DNA of 55,540 bases. It comes from Dimargaris cristalligena. Its lineage: Eukaryota. The stretch covers positions 1 to 55,540 of the forward strand of contig ML002258.1 in NCBI GenBank assembly GCA_003614675.1. Reading direction: 5' to 3'. Below the pieces are notes generated by a model. It made no database searches. It was given only the letters and a program-made list of their open reading frames with translations, and was not told the DNA's origin. The position numbers were made by a program, and so were the translations under genes. This document shows, one piece after another, positions 9,042 to 55,540 of the stretch; within the stretch, counting starts at the first letter, position 1; each line of letters starts with the position of its first letter.

Positions 9042-12000
9042 TCTTTATCACACACACCCTTCTCTTTCTCTCTCCTATACCCCAATTATTATTATTATTA
9101 TTATTTTCCGTTCATTTTAAAACAGGTTCCTATTTTTATATATATACTAATATTCGATTATCACATCTATACTTCCCTTTCACCAAATTCTTTATACTTC
9201 GTTTTTATGTATTATTGCGTCCATGGTTTAGATTCCCATCTCTCCCCTCCATCCATTCATACCCCTATCCTGGGATTTTTCTACCACCTTTACCCAACTA
9301 GTCTAACTTTTTAACTGGCTTATTCATTCATTTATTTCTATTAATATTGTTTTTTCAGGTCAACGATGTTTGATTATGCTGAGATTCCCCGCGCCCTCTT
9401 GCCCACCATCTCACCCATTCCTTTAGCCATACATTTTCATCAAAGTATTGACAAGTGCTATCCTCCTATCCACTTTAAACGGGAAAGTACACCTGATTTT
9501 CACATTTAGCTTGCATCCATCTCCCTAACATATACCTTTTTTTTATTTTATTTTTTTAAGACTCTTCAGCCCAAAGCTAATAATGAATCCTTCTTGGAAT
9601 ATTGTTGAAGTATTTAAATTATTGTGGTCGAACTTAATGTCGCACGACAATAGGGCTAGATAACCTCATATCAGTACCAGTTGGAGCAATGGCAGCCCAG
9701 TGGTAAACTTGAGATCTCCAGGAAAAACTCGCCCTTGGCGGGGACGAATCTTGTCTAGATTTCAGACAGGGACAACTAGGCAACCGGAGATCACTTAGGG
9801 ATCCTTCTAGTACGCGGCGGATAGGGCTTAATGAATGGGCTTAGGCCAAGTGGCAACGCCGATAAGATACTACCTGGGGCCAGGGAAAAACCAATAGAAA
9901 AATGTAATGTTGTAAAATTGCTTGCCTTTATTGGGAGAATACCTAGTGAGTATTTATAGAAAACTGGGCAGTAAATAAGAACATAAACATAGTGACCTAC
10001 TTGTGCCACTGTCGTACTGGAATACCCAATAAACAGTTATGAATAATGAAGATAGATAATTAGAAGGATGTACGAAATAATGAAGGTTGCCAATGATGGC
10101 GGGTTGGGGATATGCCCCGAGCTTCTATAGCTAAAAAGCTCTCCTAATAGAATAATGCATATTGGAAATTGGGCCCAGACCACCGAAGTGCCAGTCTGGG
10201 TGGGAAGGGTGAAGATCGACGACCTCCAGCTGGGGTCTTCACCGTTTCCAGAACTAAAATAATTTGGTTGGGGTATACTTTTAAGGTTTACGCAGACCTG
10301 GCCACAGCACCGGTCTAAGTCGGGACTCCTAGAATATGCAGTCTTAATCAGGGCTGACCTCTCATTTTGACCAGTGTTAAATGGTTGGATCCATCTACAT
10401 TGCCTTTTCTTTTGTATCAGTTCAGGTATAAAGTTAGACCCAAGGGCTCTTTCCAATTGAAGGAGGGCCCCACAGAAGATACACACGCATGGTCATTGCT
10501 GAAAAATCTGTCACTGGCTTGTGGGGAACTAAACTTATCAATATACTTTAAATTGATACATTTGAAGATGAGAGTATTGGAACCATTTGGGTGTGAAATG
10601 GACAACGGCTGAAAATACATCAATGGGTCAGTGGTTACGTGCTCAAAATTAAAAGGTGTATCATTGGTTCGTCCATAAATTCACGAAAAAAATATTCAAA
10701 AGCACCTTCTCCCGAGTGCCCCTCTCTACTCTGGTTTCACCTATGCCATTAAATCCAGACCTCTTATTTGTCAGTGGCATCTTAGTAGGTTAACCTTTGG
10801 AGATTCCAGTATTGTCCCCGCGGTTCATTCTGTTGTCAATCCTATATGCTAAAATCATTTTTTGCATACTCGTAATAGCGTCATTGAGAGAACCTGTAGC
10901 TATTAACTCCAATATTAATATAAAAATATAATAAGAAGTGGTGTATTTTGGGTGGTGTTCTACCAGAAGCCATCTAGCAGGCAATAATAGCCAGGATGGG
11001 TGGTCGTACAGTGAAGATGGGATGCAGAACATAATGGTGTGAAGCGTAATACTCCCGGTTGGATATGTATATTGCGGCTATCGAGTATGTCAGATATAGA
11101 TTTATAAAGTGGTGAGTACTGGCTGGGTCACAGGACTTACATTATAATGTAAATTCCGTATAGATAGAGATCTCTGGGGTTCCAATTCAAACAGCTGCAG
11201 TACCACTGGCTCTTTTTCTTACATGTCCCAAATAAGGGCGTAGTGCCTTAGTGGTGTATTTACAAACACTACTATCAATCAGTGGATATGCCAATAATTC
11301 TTTATTATTTCAAACCCTCCCCCCCCACTCAATGAGCATTGCGACTAATTGAACCGAGGTAATTGATATATTATCTTAGTGGATTACAGCTCACCTACCT
11401 ACAGGTATGAATTTTTGAAACAGGCCCACGTATATGGTGTTACCCTTCTGGAATGAACATTTAATGTACCAGAGTCCACTTGATCTTTTAAATAAAGAAC
11501 ACTACCGTCCAAGTGGCGTGGGTGATTTTTTATATATATTTCCAGTGAATTTAATTGGAACGGCTTCGTCCCACTCTTTGGGTCATCCGTCTAAAGCCCG
11601 GCGAGAAGGCTTAACAAGCCGAGGCTGTGGGAAGCGGAAGAATAACTAAGCCATAACCTTAGAAAAATAATGTACCGTAAAACTCATTTTCCAATTAGGG
11701 GCGAATGGTTAGCCGGTTTCTGGAATGATTTTGTGGTGAAAAAATCCGAATTGGTGGCGGGAAACATTTAAAGTAGATCATACCCTCGCTAAATAGTAGG
11801 AACTACTTCGCATGTACTTAGTTACTTTCAAGGTCGGATAGCCTGTCTTATTAGTAAACTGTACCAATTTTCCGGGAACCGTAATAACCCCTTCAGGATT
11901 TCTGCGGGTTGGAAGTTGTAATTCCATTATTTAACGAAGGAGAATTCCCACCAATCATTTTGAGCTATAGGGATATTACAGTTACACGAGCGGACCACCG

Positions 12001-12751
12001 GTGGATGCTGGATTTGTGAATTAGAGCACCGAAAATTTATGGGCACAGCCACCGCCACTACCAATGCCTAGTTCAAAATCAGGTACCCGCTGATACTGCA
12101 GTTAAGACGGTTATAGAGCCAACATTCACAAACCATTCGGAACATTCATTGAACAGCAAATGCCACAGTACCCTTCCTCTCTTTGGTCCCACCGGGACAA
12201 GAGTTTATACATACATATATATATATATATAGTGCCGACCTCTGCCCTATGATTCTCCATTACCCATTCTTCATCTCCGCAAATCAACATTCCTTGTTAA
12301 TCGCTCGGTCCATCTATAGCGTGTCTATTTGATCCCATCAACCACCTGAGCTATCCTCTCCGTTATATCAACCAACACGGCCCACAAATACTGCAATCAG
12401 CTACCTCAATTCCGTACACTTGGTATTTCTCTCCCCCAACCCTTAGCCAAAAATACGACCCATACTGACACCACATTACCATGCTGTCCTGGCTATTCTT
12501 AACTTGGTGGTAGGTGTCCATAATGAGTGGCGCTACTGGAATATGAGGTTAGTGGATCAATCCATCAATGGTCAAGTCCGAGCTCTTCATCAAACTTGCC
12601 CACACTCCAACTGCACTTGACACACCCACTTGCCAGCCTTACCATTTCTGATGCTTTACTATATACTACATCCTTAATATAATCATTAGTCCTATATTTT
12701 ACATAGTTGTACAGTCTAGAAATATTAATCATAATAAATCAACTTGATCTT

Positions 12752-13293
12752 TATTGCCTAAGTTAACTACTCTTAGTCCATCAAGAGTCCCAAGGATAGG
12801 CTTCTAACAGTAGGTGGGGCTTAGACTTAGCTAAGTAGGCTACTATTATCAGGTATAGGGCATAGTACTAACTAATAAAGGCTATGTAGTAGGCATATTT
12901 ACTAGTCAGTATAAGGGGAGTAAGTGTATATAGAGTTTATTAGGGGTAAACTAAGGGAATGAATAAGTTAAGGAATTTAGCTAGTCCTAAAGGGGTCTAG
13001 TTATATATACATAAGGACACTCCAGAGTGAGGTCCCAAGGGAAGGATACTACTAAAACTATAGGATAGATGAATAGGCTAACCAGAAGACTTGGAGGGTA
13101 ACTGGAAGAGTCTAATGGATCAGTACTGGGAGTGAGTAGTGCAAATGGGCAGGTTCTGGCTGGGGGGAGGTTATATGATATGTGATGATCCCATGGTACC
13201 AGGGGTAACTATGGGAAGGTTAATATGGTACTATAAGGCCTACTTAGTCAGATATCTAAGCCAGCTAATTTCACCAGATTAGAAGGTCTGACA
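12752..13293 (-). mobile_element. Solo LTR-like repeat, copy 1 (heavily C->T mutated)
   Basis: Alignable over most of its length to 19337-19920. On the minus strand it starts TGTCAGACC and ends CAATA, decayed from ...AACA. Internal TATATA followed by AATAAA. No CpG. No adjacent PBS/PPT or clear TSD. Confidence 0.75.
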
Positions 13294-14032
13294 GGGTATT
13301 AGCCCAACCCTCAGTCTTAATCCTGGGGCCCTACAAAATACTAATCTAACAGTATTCATGGTATGTAGGTTCAGAGTTATGGGCATAATAAGGGGATTGA
13401 AGGTTGGCAAGATAAGTGAGTTATAGAATTAAGGGTGTTTAATGACCCCACTCCCTCAAATAAGGAAATTAAATAGGGCTGCTGAAGATTGCTTTATTTA
13501 AGGCAAGAAAAAATACAAATAGTGATTCTTTGATCTACTCTAAGATAATTTAATATCAATTAATCTCACTAACTGTCAGTATAGAGAAGATATTGTGATA
13601 CCCCTCCACCCCCCTCTCCACATAGTCACCCTCCCATGACTACCAGTTAACTTACTCTTATTCAGTTCTGGAGATGAGCCTCATTATGGAGAAATAAAAT
13701 TTGTTTATCTGGGCTTACATTAACATTGAATGCACCTGGATCCAAATTGAAACTCAAAAATATGATGGGGTATTGTTGGGGATTGTAGGATTAGTAGACT
13801 TTGCTGACCACCTAGGTCACCTTGGGTATATCACTCAACTAACTATTCACATAATATGGCTGGTGTTGGAAATATAAATATGATGGTAAATGTAAGTACC
13901 TTTAATTGCAACTATAAAGATTTAAAGAAGAGAGATAGAGCTGCAAGGGGCAAAGCTAGATCCCGCGGTTGGTTTTATTGTATTGGAAATAGCAGTAATG
14001 ATGATAAAAACGTTGTTCTGAGTATAGGATGA

Positions 14033-14174
14033 TATGGGTGAAATTCGGCCCAGCTGTATAATGGTTTCAATAATATATATATGGGGAAATATATGGGATA
14101 TTTATTCTTAACCAGTAATTTTTACTTCATCTAACGGATTTTTCGTTGTACAGTTCAGTTGAATCTCTCCCATA
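14033..14174 (+). mobile_element. ~140-bp MITE-like element, copy A
   Basis: Imperfect TIRs TATGGGTGAAATTC...GAATCTCTCCCATA. Homologous to 15631-15770 and to the inverted copy at 20468-20605 (shared core CATCYAACGGAYTTTTCGTT). Confidence 0.85.
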
Positions 14175-14262
14175 TAATCATAGATAGATAATAGTCCCGG
14201 GTATTAGGACAGACCAATCAGAGTAAAGGATTCGGAGGGGCGGGAGAAATGAATTTCCAACA

Positions 14263-15190
14263 GCTGGTGCTCCGTCCCACTGCGGCCACATCCGATCGGG
14301 ACAGGGAGACGTAACCATCAATCCAGCTACTTCGGGGGGAAGGCAGCTTGTCATCTGGACTATGGTTCTGCCATTGCGAACCATCCGTTTCGGGGGCAGG
14401 AGAGGGCTTTTCCACATCACTGGCATTATTACCCATCATATCCAATGCACCATCGCTGGTATGTTCATCCAATGCAACCGAATACGACATTAAAAGCAAG
14501 CAAAATTTGGGATCAAACACCCTGGCAATCCGATCCAACTACAGGGGCTTGCCGTTACTCTGGAACACCATTTGGGTGGCCATCACTTGTTTGGACAACT
14601 GGTGCGATATCAACAACTAAGTTCCAGTGCAAACGGCCCCGTACGCCTCCAGCATAGCCATACAACGCGCATATTCCCATCGGATCGTTTTCTTAAACTG
14701 CATGTACCAGACCGGCCACTGGGCAAAGAGCTGGCTCAGCATAATCATGGTACCCACCTCTGGGCCAAGGGCCATTTGACTCTTGAGAACCCCCGTGGAG
14801 GTGTAGCTAAGCTGAACACCATGGAGGGACAGGTCCGCCATGGCCGGGGTCACTGTAACATGGGCCAGGGTGCAGAAGGAACTTAATGCTTCGCCACAGA
14901 AACCATACGTCCACATGGTAGTCAGGTCGCCAAAGGTGCACATCTTAGACATGTAGTGTTTGAGGCACAGTGCAGCACAGTTGCCCGTGGTGATCATGGC
15001 CATTGCCGGATACACCCACCAAATCCAAATCGCAGTCCTTGAATTTGGCTTCAATATGCATCGCACCAGCATTGAGACTGTTCTCCACTAGTCCCTTCAT
15101 GGCCGTGGTCAAATCAATAATGACCTGGCCTGAGCAGAACCTGTGGACAGTGGCTGGGTTAATGTGCTTCAGTAAATTGTCTTAGTACAT
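14263..15190 (-). pseudogene. PMS1: MutL-family PMS1 (human PMS2) pseudogene, 5' fragment covering the GHKL ATPase and start of the transducer domain
   Basis: Translation from ATG 15190: MY*DNLLKHINPATVHRFCSGQVIIDLTTAMKGLVENSLNAGAMHIEAKFKDCDLDLVGVSGNGH, frameshift at ~14995, then ITTGNCAALCLKHYMSK...TYGFCGEALSSFC...LFAQWPVW...EYARCMAMLEAYG...IDGYVS...GRSTS. These match the PMS1 motifs VHRICSGQV, KELVENSLDAGA, DNGxG, KHxTSK, GFRGEAL and GRS. Stops at 15184-15182, 14619-14617 and 14541-14539; truncated near MITE A. Confidence 0.92.
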
Positions 15191-15630
15191 AATGGGGGGG
15201 GGGATGTGAATGTGGAGGCTGAGAGGCCACAAATGTGAAGAAATGGAGAGTGGTGTATAGGTGGAAATAGAGCCCCGTTGGCCAATTCGGAAATGCGGAA
15301 TTGAAAAGGAGGCCCCCACGTTAAAAAACGGCCGAAAAAGCTGTCTTGGCGCCAAATAACCGAAAATGGTAAACACGGTCCCAAAGTTAGTACCAATCAT
15401 TTAGATTAAAGGTTTATACTATTCTCCAGCTGATAGAAAATAAGCGAAATTAACGATTGACTCACTATTTACCAGTGTGGGGGGCAGTCCCGAGTGATTA
15501 ATGGGTGGTTTGATTCACTGGAGTGGAGCTACAACCGAATGCCCGCCGAGAGTGACAAACCAATATTACTTGTTTAGTATAAGGAATATCGATGTGGATA
15601 ATGTTAATAAAGCACATTTAGTTGAAATGA

Positions 15631-15770
15631 TATGGGTGAAATTCGACCCAGCTGTACAAGGTTTTAAATGATGTGTATGGGAAAATAGGCAGGAGGTTCA
15701 TTTTTAATCAGTAATTTTTACCTCATCCAACGGATTTTTCGTTATACAGCCTGGTTGAACCTCTCCCATA
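15631..15770 (+). mobile_element. ~140-bp MITE-like element, copy B (same orientation as A)
   Basis: TATGGGTGAAATTCGACCCAGCTGTA...GAACCTCTCCCATA, colinear with 14033-14174. Confidence 0.85.
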
Positions 15771-16662
15771 TTTAAAAGATATTTTTCGAAAGGCAAGTAA
15801 TATTAAACTGCGGTAGAAGATATCCGTGTTATTGTAGCTAGCCGAACTATAACCAGCAAACGATCTAACCAGCCTATAATCGTCGATTTATGTCCCCTTC
15901 ATTCCCAACAACCCTATGGATAGACCAAGACCTACTCCTCAGATCTGTCCAGGCAATTGTCTGACCTAAAATAGTCACCAGCAGTCAAGCATCATTGTAT
16001 AGCAGGTATTCCAGGGCTAATGGTACCTTCGGATGCACAATAGAGCTAGCCCTGGCGTGTTTTACTCCAAATGTTCAACAGTTTGCTCATAAGTGTATAT
16101 AGGCGAGTCTCTATTATTTTAAACGGCCATGAGCTTTGGCAATAGTAAATGCTGCGCCTTGTAGTAAAATGGTGGACCTGAACGCACTAGTCTATCGACA
16201 CACCTACCAAACGCATACAACTCGTTTGCCATTCCATACCACTCGCTTCGCATTTTTTTGAGTAAACCACCGGTATTATCCATAGCCAAGCAGACCAGTT
16301 GGACATTCGAAGGCAGGATCAACTTAATTGCCTTCCCAAATCAAGTAAGGGCAGTCAGCTCAACATCGTTGAGGCCGTCGTGGATAAAATATAATGCCGC
16401 TTTAGTTGAATTTCTACTTAGTAGTAGTCGAGGAATATACCAGATTTGATTACGTAACAACTAGTCGGCGGCGACCACCATGAAACAACAGCAATAATAA
16501 TAATAAAAAACGTAGTGAGAATAGTGGAAAATAAGAGTCAACAAAAGAGAGAGAGAGAAAAAAAGAAGAACGGGGGCAACTACGTAAATATATATAGGCA
16601 TGGGCGTACGTGGGTAGGAAGACGATGGACTAGGCTGGTAAAATAGGGGGGGGTGATGGGAT

Positions 16663-17870
16663 CTATTTGTGAGCGAGCTCCGCGCCCAGTTTGTAGTTGA
16701 GAATCTTATCCCAGTCAATCTTGTTGCGAGTGACGGGCAGGTTCCGTCGCAGACCCTTGAAGATGGACTCCGACAGCTGGGTGTATGTGTCGTTGAGGGC
16801 AAACTGGTACTGCTTTTCGGACGTGCTGATTTGCTTGACCAATTGCCGGGCGTACTCCTTGATTTGGCTACGGTCCACCAGGGGGCCCACCGCATCGGTC
16901 GGAACGGTGAATTCCTTCGTCGAGTTGAGCTGGATGTTGCCGTGTTCGTAGTAATGCACCACCACATGGGCCCGGCCTTTAACTTCGCCCGACGCCAGGT
17001 TCACCGTCCATATGGAGCGCCAGCGACCGTTCCAGAAGTTCTGCGGACTGTATTTGTTGCTCACAATTAAAATGGTCAGAATCTGGACATCATCACCATC
17101 ATGCCCGGCACCGGTACGACCAGCACCGCTATCCTGTTCGTCGCGGGCGTGGTTTTCATGTTCACCTTGGTGGTCGGAGTTCGATTGGGCCGAAGCCTCA
17201 CTGCCGCCATTGATGACCATCACTGCGCCTTCGGGGAAATGCTCGCTAGCGTATTTGGACACGGCCTCGTCCACGACGGCCCGCAATTCTTCGGCGGAGC
17301 TTTCGGCAATGTGGGGCTGGGCATCGGTGGCGATTTGGCGCAGGTGATCGAATTTGAAGATTTGCTTGGAACGGGGGTCAATGAAATGGTCTGCGTCCGC
17401 ACGGTTGTGTTTGGAAATGATAACGGCCCCATCGGTGTCGGGCAGCGTGACAGTCAGTAGCTGTTCGGTGTTGTATTCTTCCAGCACCGGGGTAATGCCC
17501 ACTTGCAGGGCTTCGTCGTTGTTGATGATACCACGGATGTCTAGCAGAAGTGAGTAATGAGCCGGGGGTGGTTTATAGTAGTATATAAGCGAAGGGGAGT
17601 ATGAGTATACGGAGACCCCAACGATATCCCTTCAGCCTCAGCCCGAATGCCCCATCCTTAGGGTTGGTCTATTCAACATGTACCGACTCCATATCAAAAG
17701 TCGGGCACCGAGACTAGCCGAGTTTGAAGGGTAAGTATGGAAGTCATGCCAAGGCTCCATGGGGCCAACCTACCATTGAACACATCGTTGACCTCGCCAG
17801 GCGGGCTGCTCAAAAGAAACCCAGAGGCGATTTTAATCTTTTCTTCGACCGACAGTTCAACGTCACTCAT
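16663..17870 (-). CDS. CAP1: F-actin capping protein alpha subunit, 2 exons (17870-17774, 17540-16663), 324 aa
   Basis: FLLSSPPGEVNDVFN|DIRGII, NKYSPQNFWNGRWRSIW, VHYYEHGNIQL, FKGLRRNLPVTRNKIDWDKI. GTAGGT/TAG intron in phase 1. Confidence 0.97.
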
Positions 17871-19336
17871 CTTGGATAGGATTAGCGGCGGAGATGTAAG
17901 CAAAAATCAAAAACTAATAGTAATGAAGTAGCTAGGAAATGTAATGAGCTGGTATGCGGAATGCAAACTTGAGTTTGGGCAAAATATGGAAAGGGGAAGG
18001 GAGCAGATGGGAATGGGAGTAGTAGCGGCGGAATTCACTGCAGAAGCAACGACAAACAATAGCCCCAGGTAAATGGTCAGCCAAGAGAGTCAGTTGACCC
18101 CACAGGCAAGCAACAAGTAGCCAAGGCAGGGGGAGGTGGATTTATTGTGATGAGGAGGGGGCCAGGCACTGTGATGGGAGTATAGTGGAGCGGAGAGTGC
18201 ATCAACGACTCCAGAATGGTTGGAACTGGGGAAATGGTGCTAACAGTCAGCATAGAACTCACTGGGGAGAGATTCGATGGCCACAGTAGGGGCGACTCCG
18301 AAATGATTCCTAACAAATTTAGGTTTGTAGTTCTGGGGGTGAAAACGGATCATAACAGTCCTAATAGCAATTGGCGTTGGCGAACCACCCTCCATGGCCC
18401 GGTTTAGGAATACGGAAGATGGGGGTGGATACCATCCGTTTTTATTTCCGTTGTGCAGGTTTGTACTCCCGCAAAGAGAGGGTACAGGTGCAATGTTACA
18501 CGGAGATACAGCCCTATAAGAAAGCACCTTGAGTGAACACACTACCTGCTATTATATTCAATACTGCCAGCCTAGACTCCCTATGAAGGTATTGTGCAGT
18601 TCCATTAGAAAATAGCCCTGCCTACAGATCTCAAGGTTGGGATATTTACAGGCCTGGGGAGAGAGATTTGGTAGAATATTTATTGACTAACCTCTGATAC
18701 TCACTGTTCATGGCTACCCCTTTAAAAACCCAAAACTCCCCCATTCAACAGGGGATTGCAGTGGCAAACCTCCCACATGCCTCAAAGTCATACTTGCCAA
18801 GGTTCTTGGTCTAACATGAACTAAATAAAACAGGAAAACCATCTTTATAGACCCACATTTAACCTTATATTGTTCTTCACCCCCCTATCATATGATTCCA
18901 GGATTGTGTATCCACTGGGATGCAGCATGAATGGGTAAATATAAGGGGAGATATATGCACATGGATAAGGTGCAGGAGTTTGACATCTACTCCAAAATTG
19001 AGCATTATGGGTAGCCTAGTGGTTCAGCTTCATTACACCTGTCCAATGGGAGCAGTGGTACAGCCTGGGTAGCCCAATACTATAGTTTAGACATAATAAC
19101 TCAGCTTGTTATTATGAAACAGCTGGCTGGGTTTGGTCAAGGGCCACATGGCTAAATATTGAGTTGTAAGTTGTAATATGGGAGTAGTTCAATAAGGCTG
19201 TATAATGAAAAATCCATTTGATAAGGTACAGTCATGGCCAGTAAAAGTGAGACACCTAGTCTTAGTGTAAAAAAAAATAAAAAATGCCTATTTCCCAATT
19301 TGATGTATCTACTTATATATATATAGCTATTTATAG

Positions 19337-19920
19337 TGTTACCCAGGTTAACCACTCTTAGTCTGTCAAGAGTCTTGAGGATAGGCTTCTAACAGTAGAT
19401 GGGGCTTGGGCTCAGCCAAGCAGGTTACTAGAATTAGGTATAGACACAGTACTAACCAATAAAGGTTTCAGCATAGGTATAGGCAAGGGATATACAGTAG
19501 GCATACTTACTAGTTAGTATGGGGGGGTGAGTATATATAGGGTTTATTAGGGGTAAACCAGGGGAGTAAGAATAAACTAAGGAATCTTACCAGTTCCAAT
19601 GGGGCCTAGTTATATATATATAGGGATACCTCTGGAGGGAGGTCCCAGGGGAAGGATATTACTAAGACTAAGGTATAGGTAAATAGGCTAACTGGATGAC
19701 TATTAGTATCTGGAAGACTCTGATGGTGACCAGAAGAGTCTTTGGATTAGTACTTAAGTGATTAGTATAAAGAGGCAGAGTCCAGAAGGGAAAGGGTTAT
19801 ATGATATAGAGTAGTCCCATAGTACCAGGGATGACTATAGGAAGGTTAATATGGTACTATAAGGCCTAATAGGGATGGACACTACAGTATCTGGATTAAG
19901 GAGGATTAGATGGTCTGACA
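19337..19920 (-). mobile_element. Solo LTR-like repeat, copy 2
   Basis: Minus strand begins TGTCAGACC and ends GGGTAACA (TG...CA termini). TATATATA at ~19611-19622, then AATAAA at ~19548-19543. Homologous to 12752-13293. No CpG. Confidence 0.8.
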
Positions 19921-19984
19921 ATTGCAACACCCATTTTTTTTTAAAAAAAACCCTTATGCCAGCAAGAGCAACTCTTCCTCCTCC

Positions 19985-20248
19985 TACCCCTGTAATTTGT
20001 GTGGTAAAATATACCAGTTTTGGTAAGGCTTGACTAAGCACACAAAATTGCAATATCCCAATAGACACTATGCTTATGCTAAGTGTGACCTGGAGTTTGC
20101 TGGAAATTTGGAATACCAAAACCATTTAAAGATCCACAAACCTAAGAAGTATTTACACTGTAAATTTTGCCATCGGAAATTTATTTACAATCTGTCCTTC
20201 CAACTTCACTTGAAATCCCATACTGAGGAGAAAACCCCCTCTACCTGA
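19985..20248 (+). pseudogene. Decayed C2H2 zinc-finger gene fragment (3 fingers)
   Basis: YPCNLCGKIYQFW*GLTKHTKLQY / YAYAKCDLEFAGNLEYQNHLKIH / HCKFCHRKFIYNLSFQLHLKSH keep C-x2-C-x12-H-x3/4-H spacing. There is a TAA at 20024 and two ligand positions read Tyr (20054, 20075). Confidence 0.8.
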
Positions 20249-20467
20249 ACAATGTGTGAAGAAAAAAACATCTGACATGAAATATCTTACGGGCCGCAGG
20301 AATACTTTAGATACAAACTATTGTCACACTTCCTTCTGATTTATCAATAAATATTATTTGTCGCAATGATTATAGTAGTCACCCCTGTGTTGAAGTCCAG
20401 TGCACTGGTTAACAACCTATTGACCGGGCATGGTCATCAACCAAAACTGATGGGCAGCAAGGGTGTA

Positions 20468-20605
20468 TATGGGAGAGGTTTTGCTAAGCTATATAACGAA
20501 AAGTCCGTTGGATGAGGCAAACGTTGGTAAAAATGGATCCGACGTCTATCTTCCCCTGGAAATATTATTTAAAACCTTCTACAATTAGTCCCGATTTCAC
20601 CCACA
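20468..20605 (-). mobile_element. ~140-bp MITE-like element, copy C (inverted, more diverged)
   Basis: Reverse complement reads TGTGGGTGAAATCGGGAC...CCTCATCCAACGGACTTTTCGTTATATAG...AACCTCTCCCATA, matching copies A and B. Confidence 0.8.
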
Positions 20606-21007
20606 TTAACTTAGGCGAATAGTGTGGCCACATGAAGGTGCTGGATTTTGATCTGCCAGCCAAATTATATAAAGTAATGTTGAAAAGAAGCCACAGCAGT
20701 GGTCGATTATTTTTAGTGTATTGTAGCATTTGTCACATTTTATTGTTTTAGTTAAATACTGTGCACCTACTAAACCAGGCCGTTTACTAATTATTTTTTA
20801 GATTGCGATATTCGAGCTAATCTATAATGTGCCTTCAGTTAAATACATTTTAGAAAAACCTATAGGATAAATAATTGTAGATAAAGCCTTTGAAAATAAT
20901 AAACCGGCAGAATAAATGGTTCAGGGAAATGATAATAAGGCTACTGGTGCACTTTTGGGTGTGAAATATATATATATATAACGAATTGGCCAGATGACCT
21001 AGGTGGC

Positions 21008-24000
21008 TTAGGTGGTGGATTTACCCAGCACCAGAGCCAGAAGGGCCATGCGGACATACATGCCGTACTTCATTTGGCGGAAGTAGGCGGCCCGGGGATC
21101 GAAATCGACTTCGGGGTCAATTTCACCGATACGCGGAAGCGGGTGCATCAGAATCATCTGGGGCTTGGCCTGGGCTAACATGGCATTATTGACCACGTAG
21201 GCGTCCTTAACCCGGTCGTAATCGTCTTGATTAGAAAACCGCTCCTTTTGAACTCGGGTCACGTACACCACATCGGAGTCGCCCATGACGTCGGATAGGT
21301 CGGTGAACTCGCGCTGCGGAATACCGTACTTGGCCACTTCGGCCTTGGTTTCGGCGGGCATGCGGAGTTCGGGCGGGCTGACGTAGTTGAGAGTAACATG
21401 ATAAAGGGCAAGGAGTTTAACCAGGCTGTGCACGGTGCGGCCGTTCTTGAGATCGCCCACCAGAGTAATGGTCAGGCCATTAACAGTACCCAGCTCCTCT
21501 CGGATAGTGAAAATATCCAAAAAGGCCTGGGTAGGGTGTTCACCGATACCGTCGCCCCCGTTGATGATGGGCACGGGGGAGTGTTTCGAAGCCAGCTGGG
21601 CACTACCCGGACTGGGGTGGCGGAGAACCACCACATCACCATAAGCCCCGAAGGTTTGTACCGTGTCGGCCAGGGTTTCGCCCTTAGCTACGGAGGAGGT
21701 CATGGCATCGGCGGTAACCACCGATCCACCCAAACGCTGCATAGCAGTAGCGAACGAGCACTGAGTGCGGCTGGACGGCTCAAAGAAGACCGTGCAGAGC
21801 ACACGGCCGGGCAACAGGTTAATCATACCGTGGCGCTCCACTTGGGTGCGCATTTCCTGGGCCACTCCAAACAATACATGGAGTTCGTCACGGGAGAACT
21901 GGCGCACGGAGAGGATATGCTTATGGTAGAAGGGGGAGTGAATTCCGATGCGGGACAGGGAACTGGGCAGTCCCTCGATGAGACGAGTACGCATCTCGCG
22001 GCGGTGGTGATGGTCCACAACGGGAGAAAGCAAAGCATCAGGCATGTTAGTAGTCAGCGTGCCCGCAGAAGCGAGGGAAGATGAGCCCACCCCGCTGCCA
22101 ATAGCACCAACTGACGAGGGACCGGCCTTGGTGACCGTTCCACCCAGGATGGTAGAACCCGATACACCAGCGTGGCTCGGGCCCGCAGCTGTGGAGGTCG
22201 AAGCCACCTTCTGCATACTCACGGGGGCAGCGCCAGTGACGGCGGTTGAAGCTTCGCCGGACCCAGTGGCAACCGTCAGGCCGGTAGTCTCTCGGATCTG
22301 TCGACTTAACGAAGTGGACACCCGGTGGGTAACATCCTGGCCATGCATATTCTTGACGAAAATGTTACCGTCCAAGTACACCAGTTTGCCCCGAATAACC
22401 ACGCGAGTCACCACACCCTTCATGAGGCGTCCAGCCAGGGGCGACCAGGCGGCCGGACTGTGGCGGAATCCATTGGCCGGGACGCGGAAAGTACGGTCCA
22501 AGTCAACTTCTACGTAGGTATCGGGCTGTTCCGGAATACCGAAGATCTTGCGGGGGTTTTCGTGCAGCCGGAGGATTAGGCCTTCGATAGACAGGCGCTT
22601 ATCGGCCACCGCAGTCAGTAAGAGGGCCGTCAGACCCTCAAAGCCGAAACCGGCAATGCAGTCCCGGCCTACTTCGCTACAGATGGTACGGACAATGGAG
22701 CCCGTGCTAATGCAGTCAATGTATTTCAGGTTCTCCCAGAGGGCCTCGGAGTCCTCGAGCTTCACCCCTGCGACCTCGTTGGCTTGGCACCGATCAGTGG
22801 CATCGTGGTTAACCTGCCGGGCTTCCAGCAGTTCCTGGGTGAACAAGGCCAGGTGGGGTACATCGCAAGTCACACGGAGACCACGGTCCTTACTGAGCGC
22901 AATCAGTTCAATGTCTTGGCGGGTCGTTACGTTGGTGATGTGGATGGTACGGTTATACAGACTGGCCAGGAGCAGAATGGAAGCCAGGTCCGTCCCCTCG
23001 GCGTCGGTAATAATCAGGCCATTGGGCGTCCAGCTCTTGAAGAACCGGGAGGCCACGGTGGTCATGTTCTTCCTCGGGATTAAACGATTATGGTCCCGGC
23101 AGGGTAAGAACAGCAGAGGGGCCCGGTCCTGGAGGGGAGTGAGCGCATCGAAGTTGGCGTCCGTGGCGGTGATCTGGAACACCATGTCGCACAACGTCCG
23201 GTTTTCAATGGCGGTGTGGAGGTCATCCAACTGGTCCGCCCCAATAATCGCCTCCTTGTCGGCCACCGGATTGATACAGAGGGTAGTGAATCCACTGGCA
23301 ATAGCCGCCACCGACTGGTTGAAGTACTGGTTGCGGTTAACGTTACTGAAGGCGGCCAAGAAGGTGCTGACGTTGGTCAAACCCGGCAAGACCACCGACC
23401 GGTAGGAGGAGATGTAGTCCACGCTAGTCACATCCAGACCCTTCCAGCGGGCCAATGCCTCAATGAACAACTTGGCACACTTGACATTGGTGATCAGGGG
23501 GATCGAGTAGTCCACCGCCATACGGCGGGTGCGGTAGCCCTTACTAACGTAGCTGGCCGGGCGGCGGAAGCGGTTCTTGGACGGCAGGTTGATGTACAAG
23601 TCGATGAGATTGTTGGCCATGTGTTGGTCGAGGTTGTATTCGTCCTTGAACTGGGAAGCGGCATCGAGGCTCTTGGGGGAAGACGACCCTTCGCTGGTGA
23701 CGCCGGTGGTTACCAAGTACTGCACGGGCACACCGTGCTCTTGCATGAAATCGGCGGTACCGCCCGTACCGAACAGTCGGTAGCCCAAGGCGTGCAAGCG
23801 CTGCACCGAAGGCAGCATCTCATGCTTCTCCTTGTACGACCCAATTGAAATAAGGATATTCTTCTTCGGCAGTTGAATACCGGTGGAAAGCAGGGCCTTG
23901 ATGTAGGCCTCGTACTTGTCCCGTCCGAAGCAGGCCACCTCACCCGTGGAAGCCATTTCCACGCCGAGGATAGGGTCGGCGCCGAGAAGACGGCTGAAGC

Positions 24001-27000
24001 TGAACTGGGGCACCTTGATACCCACCACGGGGGTGGGCTGAGCACCGGGAGAGGGAACGGGCGGGGACAGAGTCGAGGCTGGGTAAGGCTCCACGGGCAG
24101 ACCCAGCATGGCCTTAGTGGCCATTTCGATGAGATCAATCCCCTTCACCTTGGACACGAACGGGAAGGAACGGGCCGCGCGAACGTTGCACTCAATCACC
24201 TTGATTTCGTTGTCCTTGGCCATAAACTGAATATTGAAGGGACCGGTTACGTTGAGTGCGCTGGCGATCATGCGGGTGGCGATTTCCACCTTGCGCACGG
24301 TCTCGGGGTCGAGGTCCTGGGGAGGCAGGATCAGGGTAGCGTCACCAGAATGGACACCAGCGTTCTCCACGTGTTCCGACACGACGTGCATAATCAGCTC
24401 GCCGTCCAGGGCCACGGCATCCATTTCGATTTCCTTGGCCTCTTCGATATACTTGGTGATAACCACGGGGTGGTCGCGCGAGACGGCCGTAGCTTCGTTC
24501 AGATAGCTGGTCAGGTCATCGGGGGAAAAAACGACATTCATGGCCGCGCCAGAGAGCACATAAGAGGGGCGCACCAGCACCGGGTAGCCCACTTTGCTAC
24601 AGAACTCGTTGGCCTCTTCGAAACTGGTCAGTTCCTTCCACAGGGGCTGGTCCACGCCAATCTTGTCCAACATACGGGAGAACTTGTAACGGTTCTCGGC
24701 AGTGTCAATCATCTCGGGCGAGGTTCCCAGGATTTTAACGCCCTGGCGGTGAAGGGGCAGAGCAATGTTGTTGGGGGTCTGTCCACCCATGGAAATCATC
24801 ACACCACTGGACTGCTCCATTTCGTAAATGTCCAGGATACGCTCCAGGGTGATGTTCTCAAAGTAGAGTCGGTCGGCCTCGTCATAATCGGTCGACACAG
24901 TCTCGGGGTTGTAGTTTACCATGACCGTCTTCATGCCATTGGCACGGAGAGTGCGGATGGCCCGGACCGCACACCAGTCGAACTCCACGGAGGAACCGAT
25001 ACGGTAGACACCGGAACCCACCACCATGATACCCTGGTCGTCAAATGTAATGTCGTTCTCGGAGGCGTTGTAGGTCATGTACAGGTAGTTCGTATAGGCA
25101 GGGAACTCGGCGGCCACCGTATCAATCTGCTTCACAAAAGGAACGATGCCCCACTCGCTGCGGCGCTGGCGGACGGCCATCTCGTGGCTACCCAGGCACT
25201 TGGCCACGGTGCGGTCGGAGAATCCGAGCTGCTTAGCCGAACGCAGAAGGGAGGGGGTCACGTCGTTGGGAGTGTAGCTGGACAGTGTCTTCTCCAGGAG
25301 AACGATGTTACGCAGCTTGTTAAGGAACCAGCGGTCGATGCGGGTCAATTCCCAGATGCGGTCCACCGAATAGCCTTGGTGCAGTGCGTTGGCAATGGCG
25401 AACAGGCGTTGGTCGGAGGGGTTGGTCAGCTCTTCGTCAATGTCCGTCACATAGTCGTTCTGGGTGAAGCCCAGGAAGGAGAACTCAACGGCCTGGATAG
25501 CCTTCTGGATTGTTTCCTCAAAGGTACGGCCAATAGCCATGACTTCACCCACGCTCTTCATGGATGAGGACAGGTTCTTACTGACGCGGGTGAACTTCTT
25601 CAAATCCCAGCGGGGGATCTTGACCACGATGTAGTCCAGGGAAGGTTCGAAACAGGCCGAGGTCTTCTTAGTCACGCTGTTGCGAATCTCGTTCAGGGGC
25701 ACGCCCAGGCCGAGCTTGGAGGCCACGAAGGCCAGAGGGAAGCCGGTGGCCTTGGAAGCCAGCGCTGAACTACGACTCAGACGGGCGTTCACTTCGATAA
25801 TGCAGTATTCCTTCGAGTCTGGGTTCAGGGCGTACTGGATGTTGCACTCACCCACTACCCCAAGATGGCGGATAACGTTAATGGCGGTGGTGCGTAGCAT
25901 ATTGTAGTCATCGTCACTCAGGGTCTGGGAGGGAGCTACTACGATGGAGTCACCAGTGTGGATACCGAGAGGATCGAAGTTTTCCATGTTACACACAGTG
26001 ATGCAGTTATCGTAGGCATCCCGGACCACTTCGTACTCAATTTCCTTCCAACCCTTCATGGACCGCTCAATGAGCACCTGGGGGCTAGAGGCGAAGGCCT
26101 TATTACACAGATCGGTGAGTTCATTTTCGTTCTCAGCAAAACCGGAGCCTAGGCCGCCGAGGGCGAAGGCGGCACGGACGATCACGGGGAACCCAATGGC
26201 CCGACCGGCGTCAAGAGCCTCCGCCACGGTGGTGGCCGAAGCGGACTGGGCGCACTTCTCGTTGATCTCCTGCATGCTCTGGGAGAACAGTTCACGATCC
26301 TCCGTGGTGATGATGGTGCTGATGGGGGTACCCAGCACCGTCACGCCCAGGGAATCAAACTCGTCCTTCATCTGAATACCGACGTTGAGGGCGGTTTGAC
26401 CACCGAAGGTCACGTAGATACCGTCCGGTTTTTCGTGCTGAATGACCTTGCGCACGCTATCAGCGGTGACGGGCAAGAAGTAGCACTTGTCGGCCAGGCC
26501 CTTGGAGGTCTGGATGGTGGCAATATTGGGATTGATAAGAATGGTATAAATGTTCTCCTCCTTCAGGGCCTTGATGGCTTGGCTGCCAGAGTAGTCGAAC
26601 TCGCCAGCTTGGCCGATACTCAGGCCACCGCTGCCCAGGATCAGCACTTTGCGCAGAGACCCGCCGCGCAGGTCCTTGTGGGCAAACTTACGGACCTGGA
26701 TGTAGGACATATTATCAGTGGTTTCGCCGGGGAACTGGAGCGGGGCCAGTAGGGTGGCGTCCTCCTCCCCGCGGTGGGCGGAGCGGTGCACCGACTCAAT
26801 GAACACTTCGAACAGATATTCGGTGTCACGCGGGCCCGGGGCGGACTCGGGGTGGAATTGGACCGAGAAGTAGGGAAGAGTCTGGTGTTGGATGCCCTCA
26901 TTGGAACCGTCATTGGCATTGACGAAACGCTCAAAGAAGGTGGATGGCAGCGACGAAGTATCGACGGCATAACCGTGGTTCTGGGAGGTGATGTAGCACC

Positions 27001-28111
27001 GACCGGTACGCACATCAGTACAGGGGATGTTTTGACCGCGGTTACCGTACTTCATTTTGGAGGTAGTCGCACCGGCCGCTAGGGCCAGGAGCTGGTGGCC
27101 TAAACAGATACCGAAAATAGGCACCCGTTCCTGGGCCATGACCCCCCGCAGGCGCTCGACTGTGATGGCCAGGGTAGTCGGGTCACCCGGCCCGTTACTG
27201 ATGAACAAACCGTCGTATTCGAGCTCTTCGGTGAGGGTGAAGTCGAAGTCCCAGGGGACCACATGCAGCTCCACCCCGCGTCGCACGAAGCAGCGGATCT
27301 GGTTGTATTTCATACCCACATCGACGGCCAGGATCCGCAGGGGCTGTCCGTTAGGACGGGTCCGCATGGGGGTCGCTACTTCGGGGGCGTAGGTGGTGGG
27401 GGTTTTGTGAGCAACCTGAGCGACCAGGTTGGTCCGGTTGGGATCAGACCAGGACACGTTGTGCAGGGGCGTCATCCAGTCCTCTTCAGTGGGACCCACC
27501 ACAGGGCCGGCCTCAGACGTAGGGGGCGCGGTCGAGGCGGTAACGTTGGCAGCCTGGACGGCCGCCATGGGTAGGAGCAGTTTACCGAGCATCACACCCT
27601 GCTGGCGAATTTTCTTGGTCAGGGCCCGGGTATCCACGCCGTAGACGGCCGGGATGTTTTGTTCCACCAACCAGGCGGATAGAGAAGACTCGGCTAGGTA
27701 ATGCGAGTAGTCCCCGGAGTAGACCCCCACGACCAGAGCGGCCACGTGGATCGAATTCGACTCGAAATACGCCGGCAGGTCCTTAAGCCAGTGGTCGACG
27801 GCCGTACGGGACGGCACACCGTAGTTGCCGACGAGGGGGTAGGTCAGGACCAGGATTTGACCACGGTAGGACGGGTCAGTCAGGGACTCGGGGTAGCCCA
27901 CCATGCCGGTCTGGAATACGCATTCGCCGGAGACGGAGTGGGTCTCGGCACCAAAGCTATAGCCCTCGACGCTGAAGCCGTCTTGGAGGACCAAAGTAGC
28001 CGGGGTCGGGGCGTGGCTGGCGCTGGGATTGGCGGGGGCCCCAGGCTTCAGGGGGGACTGTGCCACCACATTGCTGGAATGGGTGGAGGTGGTAGTAGGA
28101 ATGGGGGACAT
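21008..28111 (-). CDS. URA2: CAD-like multifunctional pyrimidine synthesis protein (GATase-CPSase-inactive DHOase-like-ATCase), single 2367-aa ORF
   Basis: GATase motifs [23 protein letters not shown] motifs [19 protein letters not shown] and [15 protein letters not shown]. ATCase motifs [26 protein letters not shown] and MHPLPR. The DHO region reads [10 protein letters not shown] instead of LPGLIDVHVH. Confidence 0.99.

Positions 28112-36288: not shown

Positions 36289-36321
<33 letters not shown>

Positions 36322-55485: not shown

Positions 55486-55540
<55 letters not shown>
55486..55540. repeat. (GTA)n / (TAC)n microsatellite running to the window end
   Basis: About 18 uninterrupted GTA units. 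Shorter GTA runs occur at ~710, ~45280 and ~53554. Confidence 0.95.

What the first reader, a model, noticed from the sequence alone, without database searches (positions are those of the whole stretch)
18503..20173. Hypermutated domain 2: ~1.7 kb with zero CpG, extending well beyond the LTR into flanking gene relics
Seen: no CG between 18503 and 20173, although the LTR covers only 19337-19920. The domain extends ~830 bp to the left and ~250 bp to the right, then ends before the CpG-rich CAP1 and URA2 genes. In the zinc-finger relic the three obvious lesions are all TA-creating: a TAA at 20024 (inferred CAA), a His ligand now TAT at 20054 (inferred CAT) and a Cys ligand now TAT at 20075 (inferred TGT). 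The TGG at 20021 may derive from CGG. Inference: the mutagenic or methylation mark spreads from the LTR into neighbours, like RIP leakage, or the flanks are themselves multicopy. The conserved ligand positions give the direction of mutation without needing an outgroup.
Basis: partly seen in the sequence, partly recalled or inferred. Interest (0 to 1): 0.7.

Follow-up and report, generated by a model that had tools for sequence, protein, structure and literature searches.

The report
CpG-free island around a solo LTR
A retrotransposon remnant in a mould-parasitic fungus sits inside a sharply bounded 1.7-kb stretch that has lost every CG dinucleotide, including single-copy neighbouring DNA. This is most likely the mutational footprint of DNA methylation spreading out from the repeat, a known kind of process seen here in a little-studied fungal lineage.

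Summary
No CG occurs between 18502 and 20174 (1,673 bp; about 41 expected at local intergenic frequency, P~2e-18). The only other gap of this size (12580-13964) surrounds the only other copy of the same LTR. By protein identity the window is from Dimargaris cristalligena (Zoopagomycota).

Assembled contigs of public runs from two studies show that the LTR and a 140-bp MITE are highly repeated. The flanks 18502-19174 and 19921-20173 are single-copy, so "multicopy flanks" is largely rejected.

The left flank has the dinucleotide profile of ordinary local intergenic DNA after total CpG->TpG/CpA decay, and its composite RIP index is negative.

In the sister domain, a PMS1/PMS2-type pseudogene crosses the domain edge. 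Against its intact paralog, Arg CGN codons became TGG/TGT/CAT/stop. About half its CpGs are lost outside the domain and all inside.

A second strain still carries two CpGs that the window has lost, so decay happened in place and recently.

The zinc-finger argument is weak. Only the Cys->Tyr lesion holds, and the "His->Tyr" is misassigned.

Best reading (0.57): 5mC-linked CpG decay in LTR-nucleated silent chromatin. A RIP-like process (0.2) is not excluded. This is a new member of a known kind, of moderate interest.

The parts
18502..19174 (.). Single-copy, non-coding left flank, 673 bp with no CpG. Its left edge abuts the CAP1 upstream region.
   Evidence: Contigs 16037-19204 (X1), 15744-19197 (X4) and 16575-19204 (X5) run through it at the same depth as CAP1. 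There is no Pfam hit in six read-through frames. Its dinucleotide profile equals local intergenic DNA after simulated total CpG decay. P(0 CpG)=2e-9.
19175..19315 (-). Degenerate copy of a ~140-bp MITE-like repeat. Only 19175-19228 is still alignable, and the end coordinate is approximate.
   Evidence: 85% match to the copies at 15719-15772 and 20467-20521. Both CpGs conserved in the 3 outside copies read TG and CA here. Repeat depth starts at 19174-19176.
19337..19920 (+). Solo LTR (TG...CA ends, 584 bp), highly repeated in the genome, with no CpG.
   Evidence: Aligned to 12752-13293 at 78% identity, with 85 transitions and 33 transversions. Summed contig depth is about 100 times the single-copy flanks. 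TpA o/e 1.65, TpG 0.56. No target-site duplication found.
19921..19948 (.). T-run/A-run spacer between the LTR end and the zinc-finger relic.
   Evidence: Read directly.
19949..20245 (+). Relic of a three-finger C2H2 zinc-finger gene. It has no start codon, an in-frame TAA at 20024, finger-1 second His now Gln (20051), and finger-2 first Cys now Tyr (20075). Finger 3 is intact. It is single-copy.
   Evidence: Pfam zf-C2H2. Translation. Ligand register. Single-copy contigs 19891/19893 onward. CpG o/e 0.09 and GC3 0.49, against 0.67-0.76 in live genes.
20174..20175 (.). First CpG after the domain, inside finger 3 of the relic. This is the soft right edge.
12580..13964 (.). Sister CpG-free domain 1 around the other LTR copy (12752-13293).
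13650..13868 (-). Part of a PMS1/PMS2-type MutL pseudogene (aa 288-360 of the intact paralog) lying inside domain 1. It has no CpG. 7 of 8 paralog Arg codons have changed, 4 of them to stops.
   Evidence: Pfam PF01119, E 3.4e-10. tblastn to P0122. Codon table.
14231..15181 (-). The same pseudogene (aa 4-287) outside domain 1. CpG o/e is 0.37-0.58 and TpG o/e is 1.46-1.57. This is partial CpG decay.
   Evidence: PDB PMS2 match, E 3e-14. Paralog P0122. 28 of 75 amino-acid changes are single CpG transitions. Composition.
14032..14171 (+). MITE copy outside the domain that keeps its CpGs. Other contigs show the empty site with a 4-base overlap.
   Evidence: joint 14031->14172.
20466..20606 (-). 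MITE copy 290 bp beyond the right edge that keeps its CpGs.
16663..17870 (-). CAP1 (F-actin capping protein alpha), intact and CpG-normal. Its upstream region meets the sharp left edge.
21008..28111 (-). URA2/CAD-type gene, intact and CpG-normal.

Best explanation
The 1.7-kb domain is the mutational footprint of a silent, cytosine-methylated chromatin patch. A solo LTR of an abundant retrotransposon family in Dimargaris cristalligena nucleates the patch.

Inferred mechanism: CpG methylation placed on the LTR extends a few nucleosomes into the neighbouring DNA (835 bp left and 253 bp right here; 172 and 671 bp at the sister copy). Methylated CpGs then decay by deamination to TpG/CpA much faster than other sites, until none is left.

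The active CAP1 promoter region probably stops the spread on the left, giving the sharp edge. On the right the effect fades inside a zinc-finger gene that the LTR had already truncated.

Shown: total CpG loss in single-copy flanks; CpG->TpG/CpA direction; decay in place; a step at the domain edge within one pseudogene.

Inferred: that 5-methylcytosine is the cause, and that the LTR is the nucleation site.
For: (1) The two long CpG-free gaps in the window coincide with the only two copies of this LTR.

(2) The flanks are single-copy. Long contigs from 4 runs of 2 studies cross both edges at the depth of CAP1, while the LTR and MITE bins are about 100 times deeper.

(3) The left flank has TpG 1.27 and CpA 1.24. 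Local intergenic DNA with every CpG turned in silico into TG or CA gives 1.34 and 1.35. Profile distance is 0.39, against 0.86 for the undecayed background. The composite RIP index is negative in all three unique flanks.

(4) Direction comes from an intact paralog. In the PMS1-type pseudogene of domain 1, Arg is CGN in 125 of 126 URA2 codons. Paralog Arg became W(TGG) x5, C x2, H, stop, P and A, with 4 of 15 kept, outside the domain. Inside it became 4 stops, 2 H, 1 Q and 1 AGA, out of 8. Thr->Met(ATG) occurs 9 times outside.

(5) One pseudogene shows a step. CpG o/e is 0.37-0.58 outside and 0 inside. GC3 at conserved codons (0.60 outside, 0.48 inside, 0.73-0.75 expected) is roughly what CpG loss alone predicts, since 17.7% of URA2 codons have their third base in a CpG.

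(6) Decay happened in place and recently. The contigs of run X5 (second study) keep CpGs at 13636 and 13763 where the window reads CA and TG. At 13763 the paralog contig also has C. Differences from X5 number 6 in 621 bp in the domain-1 flank against 5 in 4,525 bp elsewhere (Fisher p 8e-4).

(7) The MITE copy inside the domain lost both conserved CpGs, while 3 copies outside kept them.

(8) The LTR pair has 6 TG-versus-CA sites, the commonest double difference.

(9) Live genes have CpG o/e 0.87-1.06, so the loss is local.

(10) In Linderina pennispora, of the same subphylum, 5mC is reported almost only in repeats. I saw this as a passage in PMC11258239 that cites Mondo 2017.
Against: No methylation data and no DNA methyltransferase gene of this organism could be examined, so the link to 5mC is inference.

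Some changes are not at CpG. 3 of the 7 changed Arg codons inside domain 1 went on to TAG/TAA, which is CG->TA and needs a TpG->TpA step. The solid zinc-finger lesion is TGT->TAT. 4 of 10 listed strain differences are at TpG/CpA. In the LTR pair, 46 of 85 transitions lie in CpA/TpG context, and the LTRs have TpA o/e 1.65. Maintenance methylation of CpG alone does not predict these.

The left edge is sharper than a decaying spread would naively give.

The inside-versus-outside GC3 difference is not significant (p 0.15).

The MITE evidence is weak alone: 17 of 65 positions differ in that copy.

A review (PMC11258239, passage) says 5mC is scarce in Zoopagomycota overall.
Confidence: 0.57

Rival explanations
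1. A RIP-like, repeat-triggered enzymatic C->T mutator with preference CpG >> CpA acts on the repeated LTR (and on the duplicated PMS1 copy) during a sexual or parasexual stage. It leaks several hundred bp into adjacent unique DNA, as RIP does in Neurospora and Leptosphaeria (leakage recalled, not from a call).
For: The LTRs pass the standard RIP indices: TpA/ApT 1.61 and 1.73, (CpA+TpG)/(ApC+GpT) 0.74 and 0.75, composite +0.87 and +0.99. 72% of LTR-pair differences are transitions, and 46 of those 85 are in CpA/TpG context although these contexts hold only 35% of C and 15% of G. CG->TA double changes occur in 3 of 8 Arg codons inside domain 1. The duplicated PMS1 copy has lost half its CpGs even outside the domain. 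Dinucleotide RIP indices were reported positive in another zoopagomycete, Zoophthora radicans (PMC11105155, passages).
Against: The unique flanks fail the RIP indices (composite -0.44, -0.26, -0.36) and have CpA and TpG in excess. The LTR's TpA richness may be native, since both copies and the family share it. MITEs at about 100-fold depth keep their CpGs unless they lie inside a domain. Another repeated piece (13893-14230) right at the domain-1 edge keeps CpGs beyond 13964. A kingdom-wide screen found RIP-like signatures enriched only in ascomycetes (PMC12543289, abstract). The strain polymorphism suggests gradual decay rather than bursts.
Confidence: 0.2
2. The flanks are not host DNA mutated in place. 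They are old, now unrecognisable transposon or otherwise foreign fragments that were already CpG-poor. The sharp left edge is then an insertion boundary, and the domain is a cluster of nested relics.
For: The left edge is abrupt. No function or homolog was found for 18502-19174. The neighbourhood is a mosaic of LTR, MITE and another repeat fragment. 'Single-copy' means only that no contig matches at 80% identity or more.
Against: The right flank is a host-type C2H2 gene relic, and the domain-1 flank is a PMS1-type pseudogene whose other half, outside the domain, still has CpGs. So CpG loss follows position, not origin. The left flank's full dinucleotide profile matches local intergenic DNA plus CpG decay. 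A second strain still has CpGs at two domain-1 sites.
Confidence: 0.1
3. Chance, base composition or an assembly artefact.
For: None beyond the lower G+C (40%) of the domain.
Against: P(0) is 2e-18 for the domain and 2e-9 for the unique left flank alone. Both edges are crossed by contigs of independent runs from two studies.
Confidence: 0.01

Closest known systems
5mC confined to repeats in early-diverging fungi (Linderina pennispora, Kickxellomycotina; Phycomyces blakesleeanus), and 5mC-driven CpG depletion of transposons in DNMT1/DNMT5 fungi such as Cryptococcus and other basidiomycetes
   Same: It targets transposon-derived DNA, is specific for CpG, produces TpG/CpA, and leaves active genes at CpG o/e near 1. 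The lineage match is close: same subphylum as Linderina (PMC11258239, passage; the Cryptococcus/DNMT5 part is recalled).
   Different: Here only the sequence footprint is seen. No methylome or enzyme was examined. Depletion is total, reaches 0.2-0.8 kb into single-copy DNA, and has one knife-sharp edge. Some CpA/TpG-context changes come on top.
Repeat-induced point mutation (RIP) with leakage into adjacent unique DNA (Neurospora crassa, Leptosphaeria maculans); recalled
   Same: Repeats and their immediate single-copy neighbours carry C->T/G->A changes. Neighbouring genes are degraded. The LTRs pass the RIP indices.
   Different: The flanks show CpG-only decay with CpA/TpG excess, the opposite of the CpA->TpA signature. 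Short, highly repeated MITEs are spared. RIP is established only in Dikarya (PMC11105155 passage; PMC12543289 abstract).
CpG (TpCpG) hypermutation of transposons in Pucciniomycotina such as Microbotryum (Hood et al. 2005, seen only as a reference in PMC11105155; details recalled)
   Same: A CpG-directed transition load on retrotransposon copies in a non-ascomycete fungus.
   Different: No TCG preference here. Surviving CpGs of the half-decayed pseudogene show no depletion of TCG (o/e 0.98). Extension into unique flanks was not part of that description, as far as I recall.
Spreading of transposon methylation into flanking genes in plants and mammals (recalled)
   Same: Spread on a scale of hundreds of bp from the element edge, blocked by active promoters.
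   Different: Those are epigenetic observations. Here the evidence is the fixed mutational consequence.

Membership tests
Solo LTR of an LTR retrotransposon | Terminal TG...CA dinucleotides | tested here: met
   19337 TG... and ...CA 19920. The copy at 12752 starts TA (TG mutated) and ends ...CA.
Solo LTR of an LTR retrotransposon | Many dispersed copies with the same ends | tested here: met
   Summed contig depth is 1e4-1e5 against about 1e2 for the flanks. Loose ends of diverse sequence lie at 12754 and 19336/19337. The tool warns that depth is not a copy number.
Solo LTR of an LTR retrotransposon | 4-6 bp target-site duplication | tested here: not met
   The five bases on each side differ at both copies. 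They may have been erased by mutation or deletion.
Solo LTR of an LTR retrotransposon | Association with gag-pol internal sequence, PBS and PPT | tested here: inconclusive
   No internal region lies next to either copy. In other loci a purine-rich segment like 13893-13959 abuts the LTR start (joint 13959->12751).
5mC-driven CpG decay domain | CpG deficit with reciprocal TpG/CpA excess | tested here: met
   Unique flanks have CpG 0, TpG 1.22-1.71 and CpA 0.97-1.24. In the pseudogene, TpG is 1.24-1.57 and CpA 1.22-1.72.
5mC-driven CpG decay domain | Direction CpG->TpG/CpA shown against an outgroup | tested here: met
   PMS1-type pseudogene against paralog P0122. MITE consensus. Strain and paralog contigs at 13636 and 13763. 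Most of this evidence is for domain 1. For domain 2 only the MITE copy was tested.
5mC-driven CpG decay domain | Cytosine methylation present on the region | not testable with these tools
   All runs listed are kept as assembled contigs. No bisulfite data or raw long reads are available.
5mC-driven CpG decay domain | Genome encodes a CpG methyltransferase (DNMT1/DNMT5/DIM-2 class) | not testable with these tools
   No genome is held. None is in the window. No paper was found.
RIP (Neurospora type) | TpA/ApT above 0.89 with (CpA+TpG)/(ApC+GpT) below 1.03 (thresholds recalled) | tested here: not met
   Flanks give 0.97/1.41, 1.05/1.31 and 0.94/1.29. The test is met only by the LTRs themselves, 1.61/0.74 and 1.73/0.75.
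RIP (Neurospora type) | Dependence on sequence duplication; RID-type enzyme | not testable with these tools
   This needs the whole genome.
C2H2 zinc-finger gene (relic) | C-x2-C-x12-H-x3-H units matching Pfam PF00096 | tested here: met
   E 1.3e-7, 32.1 bits above the 25.2 cut-off. Finger 3 is intact, and fingers 1 and 2 each lack one ligand.
MITE | Short, non-coding, terminal inverted repeats, high copy number, empty sites | tested here: met
   About 140 bp, with ends ATATGGG.GA / TC.CCCATAT. Bins with copies are about 100 times deeper. An empty-site joint 14031->14172 has a 4-base overlap. The superfamily was not determined.
PMS1/PMS2-type MutL homolog (pseudogene) | N-terminal GHKL ATPase motifs plus the DNA_mis_repair domain | tested here: met
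   PDB PMS2 1ea6_A, E 3e-14. PF01119, E 3.4e-10. 66-75% identity to D. cristalligena MutL P0122, with stops and frame changes.

The most novel reading that the evidence does not exclude
Dimargaris has a repeat-directed cytosine mutator with preference CpG >> CpA. This would be a RIP-like genome defence outside Dikarya. It is nucleated at LTRs and leaks into single-copy DNA with nucleosome-scale, promoter-limited edges. By doing so it erodes neighbouring genes (the zinc-finger gene here, the PMS1 duplicate at the sister copy). The CG->TA double hits, the TpA-rich LTRs and the TpG/TpA strain polymorphisms would be its signature.
Probability: 0.2. Interest if true: 0.7.

Novelty: new member of a known kind. 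Interest (0 to 1): 0.4.

Why it matters
Cytosine methylation in Zoopagomycota is barely charted, and reviews describe it as scarce. These knife-edged CpG-free islands would let silent, methylated chromatin be mapped from sequence alone in an organism that is hard to grow (a mycoparasite).

They also show that the effect reaches a few hundred bp into unique DNA and stops at an active promoter. And they give a concrete example of transposon insertions speeding the decay of adjacent genes.

If the non-CpG component proves real, it bears on the open question of whether RIP-like defence exists outside Dikarya.

Tried and rejected
Whole genome: none is held. Genome-wide copy number, CpG o/e against distance from LTRs, and a DNMT search could therefore not be done.

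Earlier scan notes: nothing relevant.

tRNA and Rfam scans of the window: 0 hits.

Expression: no RNA holder was listed among 5 runs, so nothing can be said about transcription.

Intact paralog or ortholog of the zinc-finger relic: none of 8 candidates scored among longer proteins. The exhaustive profile-free search gave 21,470 generic C2H2 hits, with the best 150 only 23-31% identical.

Pfam on read-through frames gave nothing above noise for six frames of 18502-19176, three minus-strand frames of 10900-12753, three plus-strand frames of 20175-21010 and six frames of 17880-18503. The PMS1 pseudogene could not be followed to the left of the LTR.

TCG-specific targeting: not seen.

Target-site duplications of the LTRs: not found.

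Strand-biased G->A editing of retroelement cDNA as the source of the LTR's purine skew: considered and dropped. A/G versus C/T differences (51 against 34 in the pair; 243 against 182 places in run X1) do not exceed what the G-over-C base excess predicts.

GC3 inside versus outside the domain: the difference is in the expected direction but not significant (p 0.15).

Papers: Bewick et al. 2019 is not held. No paper in the library joins Dimargaris with CpG and transposable elements, or with DNA methyltransferase. 11 of 13 papers with Dimargaris cristalligena and methylation were listed, and none concerns this topic by title or abstract start. Supplements of PMC10538959 and PMC11258239, which may list DNMTs or 5mC for Kickxellomycotina, were not opened.
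Full report
OBSERVATION

The window has 2,586 CpGs (o/e 0.79). The longest CpG-free gaps are 18501-20174 (1,673 bp) and 12579-13964 (1,385 bp). The third longest is 329 bp.

In 18502-20174, base composition predicts 65.6 CpGs. A neighbouring intergenic o/e of 0.62 predicts 40.7, giving P(0)=2e-18.

In 200-bp bins the left edge is abrupt, with 6 CpGs in the 100 bp before 18502. The right edge is soft, with 1 CpG at 20174 and 3 more up to 20400.

Intact genes on either side have CpG o/e 0.87-1.06 and GC3 0.67-0.76.

ORGANISM AND CONTEXT

No genome is held for the window.

Exon 2 of the gene at 16666-17541 (minus strand) is 100% identical to a protein that its source names F-actin-capping protein subunit alpha of Dimargaris cristalligena. 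The next species is at 59%. The window is therefore from that zoopagomycete (Kickxellomycotina, Dimargaritales) or a near-identical strain.

The 2,367-aa ORF at 21011-28111 (minus strand) has the CPSase, GATase and ATCase domains of URA2/CAD.

The other genes in the window are ordinary housekeeping genes, and none is a DNA methyltransferase.

ANATOMY OF DOMAIN 2

The LTR at 19337-19920 aligns with a second copy at 12752-13293. There are 536 aligned positions at 78% identity, with 85 transitions and 33 transversions. Both copies end in the same nine bases.

A second repeat of about 140 bp has inverted ends. Its copies lie at 14032-14171, 15627-15772 and 20466-20606, with a degenerate copy at 19175-~19315 inside the domain.

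Right of the LTR there is a T/A run, then a three-finger C2H2 relic at 19949-20245 (Pfam E 1.3e-7). The relic has no start codon, and its frame opens inside the LTR end.

No tRNA or Rfam family is present.

Five public runs from two studies hold the region. I laid the assembled contigs of four of them on 12000-21000 at 80% likeness or more.

Long contigs run uninterrupted across the left edge at the same depth as CAP1: 16037-19204 in X1, 15744-19197 in X4, 16575-19204 in X5 and 16473-19187 in X2. Contigs starting at 19891-19893 run across the right edge, to 21000 in X2 and X5.

Bins holding the LTR or the MITE have summed depths of 1e4-1e5, against about 1e2 for single-copy bins in X5. The tool warns that this is not a copy number.

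So 18502-19174 and 19921-20173 are single-copy at this sensitivity. Only the MITE relic in between is repeated.

Three MITE copies outside the domains share two conserved CpGs. The copy inside reads TG and CA at those two sites. That copy differs at 17 of 65 comparable positions, so this point is weak on its own.

WHAT KIND OF MUTATION

The unique left flank has TpG 1.27, CpA 1.24, TpA 1.06 and a composite RIP index of -0.44.

I pooled 4,969 bp of local intergenic DNA (CpG o/e 0.66) and turned every CpG at random into TG or CA. That gives TpG 1.34, CpA 1.35 and TpA 0.88. The 16-dinucleotide distance of the flank to this decayed background is 0.39, against 0.86 to the undecayed one.

The right flank (-0.26) and the unique flank of domain 1 (-0.36) are also index-negative.

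The two LTRs are different. They have TpA 1.65, TpG 0.56-0.62 and composite index +0.87/+0.99.

AN UNEXPECTED OUTGROUP IN THE SISTER DOMAIN

The minus strand of 13296-13967, inside domain 1, matches Pfam DNA_mis_repair (E 3.4e-10). The stretch 14948-15181 matches the N-terminus of human PMS2 in the PDB (E 3e-14).

A 360-aa protein that its source names MutL of D. cristalligena (P0122) is the intact paralog. It aligns as follows:
- aa 4-64 to 15181-14999 (75% identity)
- aa 67-286 to 14994-14275 (66%)
- aa 288-360 to 13868-13650 (68%)

The MITE at 14032-14171 lies between the second and third blocks. A 3,337-bp contig with 132 differences over 822 bp is presumably this paralog's DNA. One pseudogene thus straddles the edge of a CpG-free domain.

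Arg is CGN in 125 of 126 URA2 codons.

Outside the domain, 15 paralog Arg positions now read: W(TGG) x5, C x2, H, stop, P and A, with 4 still Arg. Thr->Met(ATG) occurs 9 times. 28 of 75 amino-acid changes are explained by one CpG transition.

Inside the domain, 8 Arg positions read TAG, TAG, TAA, TGA, CAC, CAT, CAA and AGA.

CpG o/e is 0.37-0.58 outside and 0 inside.

At codons whose amino acid is conserved, GC3 is 0.60 outside (202 codons) and 0.48 inside (50 codons), against 0.73-0.75 expected from codon usage. 17.7% of URA2 codons have their third base in a CpG, so CpG loss alone accounts for most of both drops. The inside/outside difference is not significant (p 0.15).

Surviving CpGs show no TCG bias.

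DECAY IN PLACE

The contigs of run X5 (second study) differ from the window at 6 places in 621 bp of the domain-1 flank. They differ at 5 places in 4,525 bp of the other long pieces (Fisher p 8e-4).

At 13636 and 13763, X5 has a CpG where the window has CA and TG. At 13763 the paralog contig also has C. At 18123, just outside domain 2, X5 again has CG against the window's CA.

All 10 listed differences are G/C-versus-A/T, and 9 are transitions. Three lie at CpG and four at CpA/TpG.

In domain 2 itself, X5 shows no CpG-creating difference. There are only two differences there, at 18883 and 20003.

THE ZINC-FINGER ARGUMENT

In 13 of 14 ungapped BLASTP alignments to two canonical poly-zinc-finger proteins, the second His of finger 1 lies opposite Gln-35 (CAA, 20051). 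In the fourteenth the subject itself has Gln. The TAT at 20054 lies opposite the first linker residue. Spacing to finger 2 agrees with this register.

The real lesion would be a third-position transversion.

The TAA at 20024 sits at a variable position, so its ancestor is unknown.

Cys->Tyr at 20075 (first Cys of finger 2) is sound. It is a G->A change in TpG context.

No close relative of the relic exists in either protein database searched.

INTERPRETATION

The evidence points to a CpG-directed transition process confined to a patch centred on each LTR. The patch covers single-copy DNA on both sides and operates in place.

The best-supported cause is CpG methylation of LTR-nucleated silent chromatin, followed by deamination.

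Literature, with what I saw of each:
- 5mC lies almost only in repeats in Linderina pennispora, a member of the same subphylum (PMC11258239, passages, citing Mondo 2017).
- 5mC is otherwise scarce in Zoopagomycota (same paper, passage).
- Coemansia and Linderina carry a CDCA7-like protein (PMC10538959, section 8).

That the CAP1 promoter region sets the sharp left edge is my inference.

WHAT DOES NOT FIT NEATLY

Non-CpG changes are the main loose end. These are the CG->TA double hits in 3 of 8 Arg codons, the TGT->TAT ligand loss, the TpG/TpA strain differences, 46 of 85 LTR-pair transitions in CpA/TpG context, and the TpA-rich LTRs.

They keep a RIP-like mutator alive as a rival at about 0.2.

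On one side, RIP indices were reported positive in another zoopagomycete, and the authors stated that RIP is established only in Dikarya (PMC11105155, passages). On the other side, a kingdom-wide screen found such signatures enriched only in ascomycetes (PMC12543289, abstract).

A third reading, that the flanks are old foreign fragments, is weakened by the pseudogene step, the dinucleotide match and the strain CpGs.

VERDICT

This is a new member of a known kind: transposon-centred CpG decay with spread, in a lineage where it has not been described in the papers I could search.

Interest is moderate (0.4). It would be higher if the non-CpG component turns out to be an enzymatic, repeat-triggered process.

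Noticed in passing
window 13650-15181 (minus strand): A duplicated PMS1/PMS2-type mismatch-repair gene has decayed to a pseudogene with stops, frame changes, a MITE inserted at 14032-14171 and an LTR at its distal end. The intact paralog (P0122) lies elsewhere in the genome.
   Followed up: yes
window 14032-14171, 15627-15772, 19175-19315, 20466-20606: A ~140-bp MITE-like family with inverted ends and very high contig depth. Other contigs show the empty site at 14031/14172 with a 4-base overlap. The superfamily was not determined.
   Followed up: partly
window 13893-14031 and 14172-~14230: The DNA around the 14032 MITE is itself repeated in the genome. A purine-rich piece like 13893-13959 abuts the LTR start in other loci (joint 13959->12751). 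It is possibly the 3' internal end and polypurine tract of the retroelement. It keeps CpGs beyond 13964.
   Followed up: partly
window 31497-31826: The third-longest CpG-free stretch (329 bp), in intergenic DNA next to a serine carboxypeptidase gene. It shows no similarity to the LTR or MITE within the window, and its copy number was not tested.
   Followed up: no
window 18000-18400 and 20175-20400: DNA just outside both edges of domain 2 has a reduced CpG o/e (0.31-0.59). One strain difference here (18123) is CG in X5 against CA in the window, hinting at a weaker halo beyond the CpG-free core.
   Followed up: partly
whole window: CC and GG dinucleotides are over-represented everywhere (o/e 1.3 overall, 1.4-1.7 in non-coding DNA).
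   Followed up: no
window 16663-17870: Two public gene models of CAP1 differ. One is 324 aa and 100% identical to my exon-2 reading. The other is 294 aa and 90% identical, on a contig of exactly the window's length. This suggests a mis-called intron in one annotation.
   Followed up: no
window 55477-55540, 710-756, 36286-36352, 51984-52038: GTA-triplet and (TA)n/(GA)n microsatellites, including one running into the window's right end.
   Followed up: no
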